A program made the translations under genes and the position numbers. Source: Thermoplasmata archaeon (GTDB lineage: Archaea > Thermoplasmatota > Thermoplasmata > Lutacidiplasmatales > UBA184). From it: 64,000 nucleotides of DNA. This document shows positions 46,574-64,000 of this stretch, one piece after another (the stretch's first letter is position 1; each line of letters opens with the position of its first letter). The notes below the pieces were generated by a model. That model was given only the letters and a program-made list of their open reading frames with translations. It was not told the origin of the DNA and did no database searches. Location: assembly GCA_028864975.1 (NCBI GenBank), contig JAGWLG010000001.1, forward strand, positions 1 to 64,000, given 5' to 3'.

Positions 46574-46645
46574 TGGACACGGTGGGATTTGAACCCACGG
46601 CCTCTGCTTTGCGAAAGCAGCGATCTTCCGCTGATCTACGTGCCC
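46574..46645 (-). tRNA. tRNA-Ala(CGC)
   Basis: Cloverleaf GGGCACG/CGTGTCC with G3:U70, anticodon loop TT-CGC-AA, T-loop TTCAAAT; TATA TTTATTG ~27 nt upstream. Confidence 0.96.
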
Positions 46646-51779: not shown

Positions 51780-51852
51780 AGCCCCGTAGTCTAGTGGCCA
51801 AGGATGCGGGACTCTGGATCCTGCGGCATCGGTTCGAATCCGGTCGGGGCTA
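51780..51852 (+). tRNA. tRNA-Gln(CTG)
   Basis: AGCCCCG/CGGGGCT acceptor (A1-U72), anticodon loop CT-CTG-GA, T-loop TTCGAAT; TATA CTTATCT ~30 nt upstream. Confidence 0.95.
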
Positions 51853-61333: not shown

Positions 61334-63607
61334 TCAAGGTGACTGCGGCGCCCAGGCAGGGGGTGGCTCCGCCATGGGCGCTCCCGGGGGAGGACCCTCC
61401 TGAGGGGGCCAGGGGGCGGACTCGGGCCCGTAGGGGGGACCGGGGGGCGCCGCGGGCGGACCCGGTGGGACCACTTCCATAGGAGATGGCGGGGGCCCGA
61501 CCACGGGGGTCTGGCCCGCTCCTGAGCCGTTGCGCTTCCTGCGAGATAGCAGTAGTACCACGACCGCGCCGACGGCCACGCCAAGGACCGCGCCGAGCAG
61601 GAAGACCCAGGAGTAGTTCATCAGGTCCTGGACGAAACCCTGGCTTCCAGAAGGGGTCGGCGAACCGGAGCTTGCGGGTGCCACGACACGAAGCACCGAG
61701 GTCGAGCGGGCCTGAGCACCCAGTCCGTCCGTGACCAGGAGACTGAAGGTGAAATTGCCCGCGCCCGTTGGGGTGAAGGAGATCGAGGGGCTCAAGCCGT
61801 TCGAGAGCGCCGTTCCGTTGAGCGACCAGGCATACGAGAGGGAGCCCCAGCCGCCCTTCACCGCGCTGTCGAGGTTCACGGTCGTGTGGGGGAGGGTGAA
61901 GTTGGACGAAAGGGCGGTGGTCACGCTGAGCGCGGCCGTCACGTCCACCCACACGGATGCGCTCGCGGAACTCCCGGTCGAGTCGTTGAACCAGACCGTC
62001 GCGGTGTAGTTCCTGGGGAGCGCATAGACGTGTGTCGCGTTCCGCGTGAGACCGATGTTCCCGTCGCCGAACTCCCAGAAGTACGTGAACGGCCCGGTCC
62101 CTCCTGAGCCGACCGAGGTGAACCCGACCGTCGTCGCACCCTCTCCCACGGGGGGAGTGCGCGAAAGGGCGACGGTAGGTGCAGGAGCTATCGGCACCAC
62201 GACCCAGAGGGAGGTCGCGCGTAGACCGTTCGATGCGTTCACCGAGGCCGTGATGTTGCTCGACCCCGGCACACCTGGGGTGCAGGCAAGGTGCGACGCG
62301 TTGACGGAGGCACACCCGCTCGGTAGCCCGTGCCACCACCAACTGTAGGAACCGTTCCCTCCGGAAGTGTTCGACCAGAGGTTCAGGGTTCCCCCTACGT
62401 CCAACGCCTTGGGGGTCGGAACGGGGGTCGCGATGCGTACGGGAAGTCCGAAGGCCCAGGTCCATGCCAGGTCTGTAGCGCCCTTGCGACCGCCGAAGAG
62501 CAAAGCGTAGCCATCGTGGCCGTCGTAGCTCATCGAGAAGTAGTTCACGGGTCCCGGTGAAAGTGCGAGGGCGAGCTTGGACCAGCCTGGCCCGGTGAAC
62601 GTCCATGAGTCTACGAAACACCCGGCGGCACTGCACCCTCCGTAGAGGAGCAGGTCGCCTTGAGCGGTGTCGAAGGCGAGGCCCGACCCGTACCGGGCAG
62701 CAGGTGCCACCGCGAGACTCCCCGTGAGGTTCGTCCAGTTCCCGCCGCGGAACGCCCAGGTGTCGCCCTGTGGTCGGGTCCCCGTAAGGCCCCCGAAGAG
62801 GACCCCTTCGGCCAGCGCGGGTGCATCCGCGAAGGCCCCCATCGAGCGGCGGATCGGAAGGGGCAAGCTCTGCACGGGCGTCAGGTTGGCCCAGAAGGTC
62901 CCCTTGAGCGCCCAAGTGTCGGAGAGGTCATGGCCCGCGCGGAACCCTCCGAAGAGCACAGGATGCCCATAGGAGGCCACGTAGCTCAGGGCGAACTCGC
63001 CTCGGCCCGACGGCGCTCCCTTGGCCCCCGTAGAGATCTCGGTCCAGCGACCTGCATGGAAGGTCCAGGTGTCGTTGAGCCCACACCCCGACTTCACGTC
63101 GCAGCCCCCGAAGAGGACGAGGAACGGACCGGCCGGGTCGTAGACCAGCCCTCCGTCGCGGCGCGGGATCGGAGCCGCCCCGATCGTGGGGGTCAGGTTC
63201 GTCCAGACCCCGGCCTTGAAGGTCCATGTGTCGTTCAGGAACCCGATCGTTCCTCGCAGTCCTCCGAAGAGCACCGTGTAGCCATCCGAAGGATCGTAGG
63301 CTTCCATCGCCCCGAACCGCGGAGAAGGGGCCGAGGGGAGGCTTGCCGAGAGGTTCATCCAGAGGGGGAGCGGGGTCGCGCTGGGGGTGTCGCGGGCCGA
63401 AGATGCCCCCGATGGGGCCAGCGCCGAGCCCTGGTTCATGGAGAGCCGGTCGGCTCCCAGCCCCGCGCCCCCCTTCGCGTGCTCAAGAGCCGGGTCAAGC
63501 TCGGAGAAGAGGGGGCTGAGGGAGATGACCACGATGAACACGACGAGGGCCTGCTGCACGGACGAGGCAGGAAGGCCTCTCCGGCGCGCCGTCGCGTTCC
63601 CAAGCAC
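61334..63607 (-). CDS. Kelch-repeat plus Ig/PKD surface protein, TM-anchored with Pro-rich tail
   Basis: About six repeats of P.PR.G..[LM]AYD.....LFGG......DTW.F....W; PKD FWEFGDG; TM WVFLLGAVLGVAVGAVVVLLL. Start approximate. Confidence 0.85.
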   Translation of the reverse strand: MLGNATARRRGLPASSVQQALVVFIVVISLSPLFSELDPALEHAKGGAGLGADRLSMNQGSALAPSGASSARDTPSATPLPLWMNLSASLPSAPSPRFGAMEAYDPSDGYTVLFGGLRGTIGFLNDTWTFKAGVWTNLTPTIGAAPIPRRDGGLVYDPAGPFLVLFGGCDVKSGCGLNDTWTFHAGRWTEISTGAKGAPSGRGEFALSYVASYGHPVLFGGFRAGHDLSDTWALKGTFWANLTPVQSLPLPIRRSMGAFADAPALAEGVLFGGLTGTRPQGDTWAFRGGNWTNLTGSLAVAPAARYGSGLAFDTAQGDLLLYGGCSAAGCFVDSWTFTGPGWSKLALALSPGPVNYFSMSYDGHDGYALLFGGRKGATDLAWTWAFGLPVRIATPVPTPKALDVGGTLNLWSNTSGGNGSYSWWWHGLPSGCASVNASHLACTPGVPGSSNITASVNASNGLRATSLWVVVPIAPAPTVALSRTPPVGEGATTVGFTSVGSGGTGPFTYFWEFGDGNIGLTRNATHVYALPRNYTATVWFNDSTGSSASASVWVDVTAALSVTTALSSNFTLPHTTVNLDSAVKGGWGSLSYAWSLNGTALSNGLSPSISFTPTGAGNFTFSLLVTDGLGAQARSTSVLRVVAPASSGSPTPSGSQGFVQDLMNYSWVFLLGAVLGVAVGAVVVLLLSRRKRNGSGAGQTPVVGPPPSPMEVVPPGPPAAPPGPPYGPESAPWPPQEGPPPGAPMAEPPPAWAPQSP

Positions 63608-63729
63608 GCTGATAGATGGAGACTGCTCTGATTTGAGCCCTTGCTCTGGTCCGTTCCGGCCTCCCTGCCCCCTGCGGACTCCCCGGGTCGCGGGAGCTTG
63701 AAAAGGAGCGATGCTCCTACCTATCGGGC

Positions 63730-63846
63730 GCGGGGGTACTCTAGCCCGGTCAAACGTGCTGTTCGCGAGGACAGGAGCGGACCCAAGAGGCAAGGCTTAG
63801 GACCTTGTCGCGCAGGCGTTCGCCGGTTCAAATCCGGCCCCCCGCA
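63730..63846 (+). tRNA. tRNA-Leu(TAG) with a 32-nt intron (63754-63785) at position 21/22
   Basis: After splicing: GCGGGGG/CCCCCGC acceptor, D-stem CTCT/AGAG, anticodon CT-TAG-GA in CAAGG/CCTTG stem, long variable arm, TTCAAAT T-loop. BHB motif GGTC-AAA / GACC-CAA. Confidence 0.9.
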
Positions 63847-63868: not shown

Positions 63869-64000
63869 CTAGTACAGCGTGAAATCGGTGGTCTGAGAAG
63901 CGGTGTCCCCGGCGTTGTCGGTCACCGTGACCGTCGCGTAGTGGCCTCCCGAAGAGTAGAAGGTGTACTCGACAGAGATGCCTACAGCGCTCCCCCCATC
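63869..64000 (-). CDS. C-terminal fragment of a PKD-domain protein (runs off the window)
   Basis: ...DGGSAVGISVEYTFYSSGGHYATVTVTDNAGDTASQTTDFTLY*; not in the ORF track. Confidence 0.7.
   Translation of the reverse strand, partial: DGGSAVGISVEYTFYSSGGHYATVTVTDNAGDTASQTTDFTLY

What the first reader, a model, noticed from the sequence alone, without database searches (positions are those of the whole stretch)
63730..63846. tRNA-Leu(UAG) with a non-canonical D-loop intron (21/22) and strict bulge-helix-bulge
Seen: removing 63754-63785 (32 nt) restores a perfect D-stem (CTCT/AGAG) and cloverleaf. The junctions form GGTC/GACC with 3-nt bulges AAA and CAA; cutting after the second bulge base gives exactly this product. 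The intron folds into a GCGA-tetraloop hairpin (CTGTTC/GGACAG). Known: non-37/38 introns are typical of Crenarchaeota/TACK and some DPANN, and rare in euryarchaeal lineages whose endonucleases need a strict BHB. Inference: intron gain or transfer in Thermoplasmata; standard tRNA scans may miss or mis-call this gene.
Basis: partly seen in the sequence, partly recalled or inferred. Interest (0 to 1): 0.7.

Follow-up and report, generated by a model that had tools for sequence, protein, structure and literature searches.

The report
Leucine tRNA gene with D-loop intron
This is a real and apparently the only leucine tRNA gene for CUA codons in an uncultured Thermoplasmata archaeon. A 32-base protein-spliced intron sits in its D-loop; the intron is old and widespread in this family, although the family's cutting enzyme is the type thought to handle only standard introns.

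Summary
Window 63730-63846 (+) encodes tRNA-Leu(UAG), interrupted by a 32-nt intron (63754-63785) between positions 21 and 22.

- **Detection:** ARAGORN and the Rfam tRNA model miss the gene. After removing the 32 nt, ARAGORN calls a normal class-II tRNA-Leu.
- **Splice motif:** The junctions form a 4-bp helix GGUC/GACC, 3-nt bulges AAA and CAA, and an intron-side helix.
- **Conservation:** The same intron at the same site occurs in 147 of 180 genomes of this Thermoplasmata family. Its interior varies freely, and the helices keep pairing through compensatory changes.
- **Intronless genus:** One genus has an intronless gene with the predicted junction (D-loop ...CAA joined to AGAGG).

- **"Strict" motif:** In this genome the exon-side helix is C-G, C.A, C-G. 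The strict fold costs 5.9 kcal/mol more than a fold that keeps the D-stem, so the motif is relaxed (HBh'-like). Most relatives have a true strict motif.
- **Age:** The intron is ancestral to the family and was lost once. It is not a recent gain.
- **Not unique:** I found at least eleven other tRNA genes in this genome with D-loop or T-loop introns. Earlier reports of this scan noted several of them on other pieces of this genome.
- **Enzyme:** The only EndA found is a two-unit, alpha'2-like enzyme without the loops known to allow non-standard introns.

Splicing itself is inferred, not shown.

The parts
63730..63846 (+). Complete tRNA-Leu(UAG) gene including the intron; no encoded CCA
   Evidence: orthologues
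63730..63753 (+). 5' exon (positions 1-21: acceptor 5' strand, U8 A9, D-stem 5' strand CUCU, D-loop AGCCCGGUCAA)
   Evidence: ARAGORN on the spliced product; the intronless g3 genes have the same junction, D-loop ...CAA joined to AGAGG
63754..63785 (+). 32-nt intron at 21/22 in the D-loop
   Evidence: The interior is not conserved between genera, while length (24-35 nt) and the boundary structure are
63786..63846 (+). 3' exon (D-stem 3' strand AGAG, anticodon arm, variable arm, T-arm, acceptor 3' strand, discriminator A)
   Evidence: 97-100% identical in genus g1 and g7 orthologues
63748..63751 (+). Central helix H, 5' strand GGUC (exon; G18 G19 U20 C20a)
   Evidence: Pairs with 63780-63783. 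123 of 124 cells paired in 31 orthologues, with a compensatory U-A/C-G change at the third pair
63780..63783 (+). Central helix H, 3' strand GACC (intron)
63752..63754 (+). 5' bulge AAA; predicted cut between 63753 and 63754
   Evidence: Unpaired in the MFE fold; AAN in all 31 orthologues
63784..63786 (+). 3' 'bulge' CAA; predicted cut between 63785 and 63786. In the MFE fold C84 pairs with G15 and A86 with U13, so it is not a clean 3-nt bulge
   Evidence: It is always 3 nt in orthologues: the first two bases vary and the third is the first exon base
63755..63779 (+). Intron-side helix h' (CGU 63755-57 with GCG 63777-79) closing a 6-bp hairpin (63759-64 / 63769-74) with a GCGA loop (63765-68)
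   Evidence: The h' pairs 1-3 are paired in 100/97/90% of orthologues against 65/58/46% in shuffles, with CG/GC/UA swaps. The hairpin sequence itself is not conserved
63745..63747 (+). D-loop CCC, which could pair with GAG 63787-63789 as exon-side helix h (C-G, C.A, C-G). It competes with the D-stem 63739-42 / 63786-89
   Evidence: It is CUC or UUC (3 bp) in 24 of 31 orthologues
63798..63800 (+). Anticodon UAG

Best explanation
A functional, single-copy tRNA-Leu(UAG) gene is transcribed with a 32-nt archaeal (protein-spliced) intron between nucleotides 21 and 22. D-loop residues G18-C20a pair with the 3' end of the intron to form the 4-bp helix of a bulge-helix-bulge motif. The genome's single EndA, a two-unit homodimer-type enzyme with catalytic Y311, H319 and K350, would cut after the second base of each 3-nt stretch. 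RtcB would then join the exons, after which GAG(23-25) pairs with CUC(10-12) to form the D-stem. Shown here: the gene, the motif, its conservation and covariation, an intronless orthologue with the predicted junction, and the presence of EndA and RtcB. Inferred: that cutting and joining happen, and by these enzymes. In this genome the exon-side helix is weakened, so the 3' site is presented in a relaxed (HBh'-like) context. In most relatives the D-loop CUC pairs with GAG and gives a strict hBHBh' motif.
For: The cloverleaf appears only after removing 63754-63785. The motif is conserved at the same site in 147/180 family genomes, against 0 hits for the reversed control pattern. These counts include three unpublished genomes, G028, G180 and G181, all with the intron; without them the count is 144/177. 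The intron interior varies while H and h' keep pairing with compensatory changes, and 0 of 2000 shuffles reach the observed pairing for h'1-3. The third bulge base tracks exon position 22. Intronless genes in genus g3 have the predicted junction and are called tRNA-Leu by ARAGORN and by Rfam at 51.9 bits. No other Leu(UAG) gene was found in the genome. CUA occurs 1483 times in 934 long ORFs. One EndA gene is present with an intact catalytic triad, and RtcB is present.
Against: There are no RNA data, so splicing is inferred. The genome is 89.6% complete, so a second Leu(UAG) gene or a second EndA subunit could lie in unassembled DNA. The published alpha'2 enzyme of A. fulgidus hardly cuts even a canonical BHB placed in a D-loop (PMC3241643). 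This EndA lacks the CSL and ASL insertions and any basic Tyr-His loop. In this genome the strict conformer is 5.9 kcal/mol less stable than the D-stem-retaining fold.
Confidence: 0.88

Rival explanations
1. The motif is a fully strict hBHBh'. The D-arm stays unfolded in the precursor, CCC(16-17a) pairs with GAG(23-25), and an ordinary narrow-specificity alpha'2 EndA suffices.
For: All the elements can be drawn with 3-4-3 geometry. In 24/31 orthologues h is a clean 3-bp CUC/GAG or UUC/GAG helix, and the strict fold is the MFE or within about 2 kcal/mol of it. An unfolded D-arm would also remove the steric problem described for D-loop introns (PMC3241643).
Against: In G000 and all of g1 and g7 the middle pair of h is C.A, and the strict conformer is 5.9 kcal/mol above the MFE fold, which keeps the 4-bp D-stem. 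Nearest-neighbour energies ignore the protein and tertiary contacts, so this does not exclude the reading.
Confidence: 0.3
2. The gene is a decaying pseudogene, disrupted by an insertion and no longer used.
For: Standard tools do not call it. CUA is a rare codon, 2.4% of Leu codons.
Against: The exons are almost invariant and every stem is intact. The interruption sits at the same site with conserved BHB geometry in 147 genomes of six genera. No alternative CUA decoder was found. CUA is still used about 2.4 times per 1000 codons.
Confidence: 0.03
3. The 32 nt are an assembly or binning artefact of this MAG.
For: None beyond the fact that this is a MAG in 124 contigs.
Against: Independent assemblies from other samples carry the same interruption.
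Confidence: 0.01

Closest known systems
Methanopyrus kandleri pre-tRNA-Glu(UUC) D-loop intron (20b/21, HBh'), Kaneta et al. 2018, PMC5829648
   Same: It is found in a euryarchaeal-grade lineage. The intron is in the 3' part of the D-loop, next to the D-stem 3' strand. The motif is relaxed HBh'-like. The EndA lacks the specific loop. The fused M. kandleri EndA (5x89) is the best solved-structure match of this EndA.
   Different: It is a different tRNA, and the site is one or two nucleotides away. The M. kandleri enzyme is an (alpha-beta)2 heterotetramer, whereas here both units are in one polypeptide. Here the intron is conserved across a family of 180 species-level genomes, and most copies are strict.
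Aeropyrum pernix pre-tRNA-Thr(UGU) D-loop BHB intron, Hirata et al. 2011, PMC3241643
   Same: It is a BHB intron in the D-loop of an expressed tRNA, and it was shown to be cut by EndA alone.
   Different: The A. pernix enzyme is (alpha-beta)2 with the Crenarchaea-specific loop (K44), which was needed for D-loop cleavage when grafted into A. fulgidus EndA. This EndA has no such insertion.
ARMAN-2 (Ca. Micrarchaeum) non-canonical introns with epsilon2 EndA, PMC3239211 and PMC3488258
   Same: It is a lineage outside TACK in which many tRNA genes carry introns at non-37/38 sites, including 59/60.
   Different: The ARMAN-2 enzyme has three units and the ASL loop (K161). Here the enzyme has two units, and the ASL insertion site reads SKIGE, the same length as in A. 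fulgidus.
Non-canonical BHB introns of Thermoproteales and Thaumarchaeota, as modelled in tRNAscan-SE 2.0 (PMC8450103)
   Same: They share the same splice motif and the same rule of cutting after the second bulge base, and several introns can occur per gene.
   Different: They belong to a different phylum and enzyme type. I found no paper in the searched library that reports such introns for Thermoplasmata.

Membership tests
Archaeal BHB (protein-spliced) tRNA intron | Central 4-bp helix between the two splice sites | tested here: met
   GGUC/GACC in the MFE fold; 123/124 cells paired in 31 orthologues
Archaeal BHB (protein-spliced) tRNA intron | Two 3-nt bulges on opposite strands, 5' site distal, each cut after its second base | tested here: inconclusive
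   The 5' bulge AAA is clean. The 3' stretch CAA has the right length and register in all orthologues, but in the favoured fold of this genome's RNA it lies in an irregular internal loop
Archaeal BHB (protein-spliced) tRNA intron | Removal restores a canonical tRNA | tested here: met
   ARAGORN calls Leu(tag) on the spliced product; the intronless g3 orthologues have the same junction
Archaeal BHB (protein-spliced) tRNA intron | Cleavage by EndA and ligation by RtcB, shown experimentally | not testable with these tools
   Both genes are present in the genome; there are no RNA or enzyme data
Strict hBHBh' motif (Marck and Grosjean sense) | Flanking helices h and h' of at least 2 contiguous bp on both sides | tested here: not met
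   h' is met (CG/CG plus U.G). h in this genome is C-G, C.A, C-G, and the strict conformer is +5.9 kcal/mol. The feature is met in 24/31 orthologues from other genera
alpha'2-type (two-unit homodimeric) EndA | One polypeptide with two tandem endonuclease units, with the catalytic Tyr-His-Lys only in the C-terminal unit | tested here: met
   There are two N-domains and two catalytic-type domains in one 374-aa ORF. Y311, H319 and K350 are conserved. The N-unit has L and K at the Tyr and His sites. Dimer formation was not tested
Broad-specificity EndA (CSL/L1, ASL/L2 or basic L3 loop) | Lys-bearing insertion next to the active site, or a basic loop around the catalytic His | tested here: not met
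   The A. pernix CSL aligns to a gap. The ASL site has the same length as in A. fulgidus. The Tyr-His loop is short and acidic or neutral

The most novel reading that the evidence does not exclude
A whole class-level lineage of Thermoplasmata maintains D-loop and T-loop introns in essential tRNAs. It does so with a single homodimer-type EndA that lacks every loop so far shown to confer broad specificity. If so, either this enzyme has a new, loop-independent way of accepting non-standard positions and relaxed motifs, or the precursors avoid the problem by using the D-loop CUC as a decoy partner for GAG(23-25), which keeps the D-arm unfolded until after splicing. A candidate for the first route is the full-length pseudo-active-site loop of the N-terminal unit, with the conserved motif LPRGGxxxKTPS[KR]xWV. 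Either route would revise the accepted link between EndA architecture and intron position.
Probability: 0.5. Interest if true: 0.65.

Novelty: new member of a known kind. Interest (0 to 1): 0.5.

Why it matters
Reviews tie non-standard tRNA introns to (alpha-beta)2 or epsilon2 endonucleases that carry special loops, and they treat alpha'2 lineages as limited to strict motifs at 37/38. Here an essential tRNA in a large Thermoplasmata family keeps a D-loop intron with only an alpha'2-like, loop-less enzyme. In this genus the motif is even relaxed. That gives a natural test pair for what really limits EndA specificity: a strict motif in genera g4-g6 and a weakened one in g1 and g7, for the same tRNA and orthologous enzymes. 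In practice, annotation pipelines based on ARAGORN or the plain Rfam tRNA model will report these genomes as lacking tRNA-Leu(UAG) and about a dozen other tRNAs.

Tried and rejected
- **ARAGORN intron mode:** On the whole genome it gave mostly false long-intron calls and still missed this gene.
- **Family BLAST with the 3' exon:** It mainly hit the Leu(UAA) gene and added little.
- **Two-intron scan:** My first filter was too strict and dropped true genes. I used the raw output instead.
- **Shared intron sequences:** I looked for similarity between the D-loop introns of Leu, Lys, Arg and Pro, which would suggest intron transposition. None was evident, and the sites differ.
- **Conserved intron payload:** The GCGA hairpin could have been a small RNA, but the intron interior is not conserved beyond the genus (crude similarity scores).
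- **'Insertion' in the EndA N-unit:** The apparent 11-aa insertion relative to A. fulgidus looks more like a deletion in A. fulgidus, because the N-unit loop matches the length of the protein's own catalytic loop.
- **Literature:** Searches found no report of non-canonical tRNA introns in Thermoplasmata. Absence from that library is not proof.
- **Not run:** tRNAscan-SE and SPLITS are not available here. The spliced sequence could not be given to Infernal because it has no reference; I used the intronless orthologues instead.

Full report
**1. What is in the sequence**

Window 63730-63846 (+) reads as a class-II tRNA with an insert. Without 63754-63785 it has these parts:
- acceptor stem GCGGGGG/CCCCCGC
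- U8 and A9
- D-stem CUCU/AGAG
- an 11-nt D-loop, AGCCCGGUCAA
- anticodon arm CAAGG-CUUAGGA-CCUUG, with anticodon UAG at 63798-63800
- a 14-nt variable arm
- T-arm GCCGG-UUCAAAU-CCGGC
- discriminator A, with no encoded CCA

ARAGORN and the Rfam tRNA model find two other tRNAs in the window but not this one. A permissive Rfam search gives only a sub-threshold tRNA-Sec match of 24.5 bits, with a 39-nt insert in the D-arm.

I ran a genome-wide scan that removes every candidate bulge-helix-bulge segment and passes the product to ARAGORN. It recovers tRNA-Leu(tag) here only for the deletion 63754-63785. Because of the A run, deletions shifted by one base either way give the same product. The BHB rule selects 63753|63754 and 63785|63786, which is position 21/22.

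**2. The splice motif**

The MFE fold (-53.9 kcal/mol, z = -2.3) contains:
- helix GGUC(63748-51)/GACC(63780-83)
- the unpaired AAA (63752-54)
- helix CGU/GCG (63755-57 / 63777-79)
- the 6-bp hairpin CUGUUC/GGACAG with a GCGA loop

The geometry is the canonical one: the 5' bulge is distal and the 3' bulge is proximal.

The weak point is the exon-side helix h. The only partners for GAG(63787-89) next to H are CCC(63745-47), which gives C-G, C.A, C-G. The MFE fold keeps the 4-bp D-stem instead, and that places the 3' cut site in an irregular internal loop. Forcing the strict conformer costs 5.9 kcal/mol in this genome and in a g7 relative. In three g4 orthologues, where the D-loop reads CUC, the strict conformer is the MFE or within about 2 kcal/mol of it, and it beats the D-stem-retaining fold. 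So 'strict' fits most of the family, while this genome's copy is better called relaxed (HBh'-like).

**3. Comparative evidence**

Record titles of close matches name Thermoplasmata MAGs. BLAST against 60 relatives found full-length, intron-containing orthologues in genera g1, g7 and g2. It found intronless genes in g3 and in other families.

A pattern scan of all 180 genomes of the family found the interrupted gene in 147, with no hits for the reversed control pattern:

| Genus | Genomes with the intron |
|---|---|
| g1 | 2/3 |
| g2 | 1/1 |
| g7 | 3/3 |
| g5 | 8/8 |
| g6 | 8/9 |
| g4 | 124/150 |
| g3 | 0/5 |

Three of the 147 (G028, G180, G181) are unpublished genomes. Without them the count is 144/177. 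The tree below does not use them.

In 31 distinct orthologues:
- **H** is paired in 123/124 cells, with a U-A to C-G compensatory change and G.U wobbles.
- **h'** pairs 1-3 are paired in 100/97/90% of sequences, against 65/58/46% after shuffling (0 of 2000 shuffles reach the observed value). CG, GC and UA types are all present.
- **The 5' bulge** is always AAN.
- **The 3' stretch** is always 3 nt. Its first two bases vary freely and its third equals exon base 22.
- **The intron interior** is unrelated between genera, and intron length ranges from 24 to 35 nt.

The g3 genes have the predicted junction (D-loop ...CAA joined to AGAGG, then GCAAGG). ARAGORN calls them tRNA-Leu, and Rfam scores them at 51.9 bits. 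Intron-bearing orthologues are missed, or mis-called as a truncated gene.

An EndA gene tree rooted with three other families splits the family into (g3,(g2,(g7,g1))) and (g4,g5,g6). The first clade has 86/84 support. The intron occurs in both clades, so one ancestral gain and one loss in g3 is the simplest history. This rests on a single gene.

**4. Is the gene needed?**

No other Leu(UAG) gene turned up in the 89.6%-complete genome. The Leu genes found are CAA, GAG, CAG and UAA, the last with a 37/38 intron. CUA occurs 1483 times in 934 long high-GC3 ORFs, or 2.4 per 1000 codons.

**5. Context in the genome**

The Leu gene is one of many. My scans and inspection found:
- **D-loop introns** in Arg(GCG), Pro(UGG) and Lys(UUU). 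They lie at other D-loop sites. Lys(UUU) has one at 20/21 plus one in the T-loop.
- **T-loop 59/60 introns** in Gly(UCC), Ala(GGC), Asn(GUU), Ser(GCU), Ser(GGA), His(GUG), Asp(GUC) and Arg(UCG).

Earlier notes of this scan list several of these on other pieces of the same genome. I re-derived them independently before reading the notes.

In g4-g6 the Leu(UAG) gene itself carries a second intron, in the T-loop.

**6. The enzymes**

The genome has one EndA gene (G000:C53, 374 aa). It has two N-domains and two catalytic-type domains in one ORF. Y311, H319 and K350 are in the C-terminal unit. Its best solved-structure match is the fused M. kandleri enzyme 5x89, followed by A. fulgidus alpha'2. RtcB is present.

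The EndA lacks the three loops linked to broad specificity:
- The A. pernix Crenarchaea-specific loop (LDVEKPRGADFEGP, K44) aligns to a gap in this protein.
- The site where the ASL was grafted into A. fulgidus EndA (E174-G176; PMC3488258) has the same length here and across the class sample (SKIGE or SRIGx).
- The Tyr-His loop is short and not basic.

One full-length two-unit EndA was found in 57 of the 61 class genomes searched (59 had a match; two matched only in part).

Published experiments report the following:
- Wild-type A. fulgidus alpha'2 EndA hardly cuts even a canonical BHB placed in a D-loop, and does so only after the CSL is grafted in (PMC3241643).
- It barely cuts a relaxed T-loop intron (PMC3488258).
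- The loop-less M. kandleri enzyme cuts its own D-loop HBh' intron poorly in vitro, although mature tRNA exists in vivo (PMC5829648).

This lineage therefore sits awkwardly with the accepted link between enzyme architecture and intron position.

**7. Mechanism proposed**

- **Shown:** the gene, the motif, its conservation and covariation, and the presence of the enzyme genes.
- **Inferred:** EndA cuts at 63753/54 and 63785/86, RtcB joins the exons, and GAG(23-25) then forms the D-stem.
- **Inferred for most relatives:** the D-loop CUC acts as a temporary partner for GAG. This builds a strict motif and keeps the D-arm open, which could remove the steric hindrance seen with D-loop introns.
- **Open for this genome:** that helper helix is weakened here, so either the enzyme tolerates a relaxed 3' site or it captures the minor conformer.

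**8. Surroundings**

The gene lies between two minus-strand ORFs. A Kelch-repeat protein is on the left. Its longest reading would overlap the tRNA, so its real start is probably further in. A PKD-domain protein ends near 63869 on the right. An A/T-rich stretch, TTGAAAA, about 25-33 nt upstream could be the TATA element; this was not tested.

**9. Verdict**

This is a known kind of element, a BHB intron at a non-standard position. It occurs in a lineage and with an enzyme type where the searched literature does not report it. It is ancient and common in the family, and it is one of a dozen in this genome.

Noticed in passing
L039-L045 and L053-L075 (orthologues from genera g4-g6): In these genera the same tRNA-Leu(UAG) gene carries a second intron in the T-loop (59/60; ...GGUUCAAA|G...GGGAAC|UCCGG). 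It is absent from G000 and from genera g1, g2 and g7.
   Followed up: partly
L017:~1440-1560 and L019:~1440-1560 (family f3, AT-rich genomes): Here tRNA-Leu(UAG) has no D-loop intron but has a short AT-rich intron in the T-loop, so intron sites in this tRNA differ between families of the order.
   Followed up: no
G000:C32:210147-210253 (-), G000:C44:4196-4306 (-), G000:C38:9223-9371 (+): Arg(GCG), Pro(UGG) and Lys(UUU) also have D-loop introns, at sites different from Leu's. Lys has one at 20/21 plus a T-loop intron. I saw no sequence similarity between these introns.
   Followed up: partly
G000:C10:2785-2898 (+) and G000:C81:10553-10665 (+): These are two class-II tRNA-like genes with good acceptor, D and T arms, whose anticodon-loop and intron region I could not resolve. 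ARAGORN gives undefined anticodons.
   Followed up: no
G000:C53 EndA (L001:1447-2571:-), residues 128-143: The N-terminal, non-catalytic unit keeps a full-length pseudo-active-site loop with a motif conserved across the class sample, LPRGGxxxKTPS[KR]xWV. A. fulgidus EndA has an 11-aa gap there.
   Followed up: partly
window 46574-46645 (-) and 51780-51852 (+): These are ordinary intronless tRNA-Ala(CGC) and tRNA-Gln(CUG) genes, so intron-free and intron-bearing tRNA genes coexist on the same contig.
   Followed up: no
L004:1536-1617 (+) (G001 orthologue): ARAGORN mis-calls the intron-bearing orthologue as an 82-nt tRNA-Leu that starts inside the intron. This is an example of the annotation error to expect in this family.
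   Followed up: yes
window ~62231-63793 (-) and ~63869-64753 (-): The flanking ORFs encode a Kelch-repeat protein and a PKD-domain protein. The longest reading of the Kelch ORF would overlap the tRNA gene, so its true start is probably internal.
   Followed up: no
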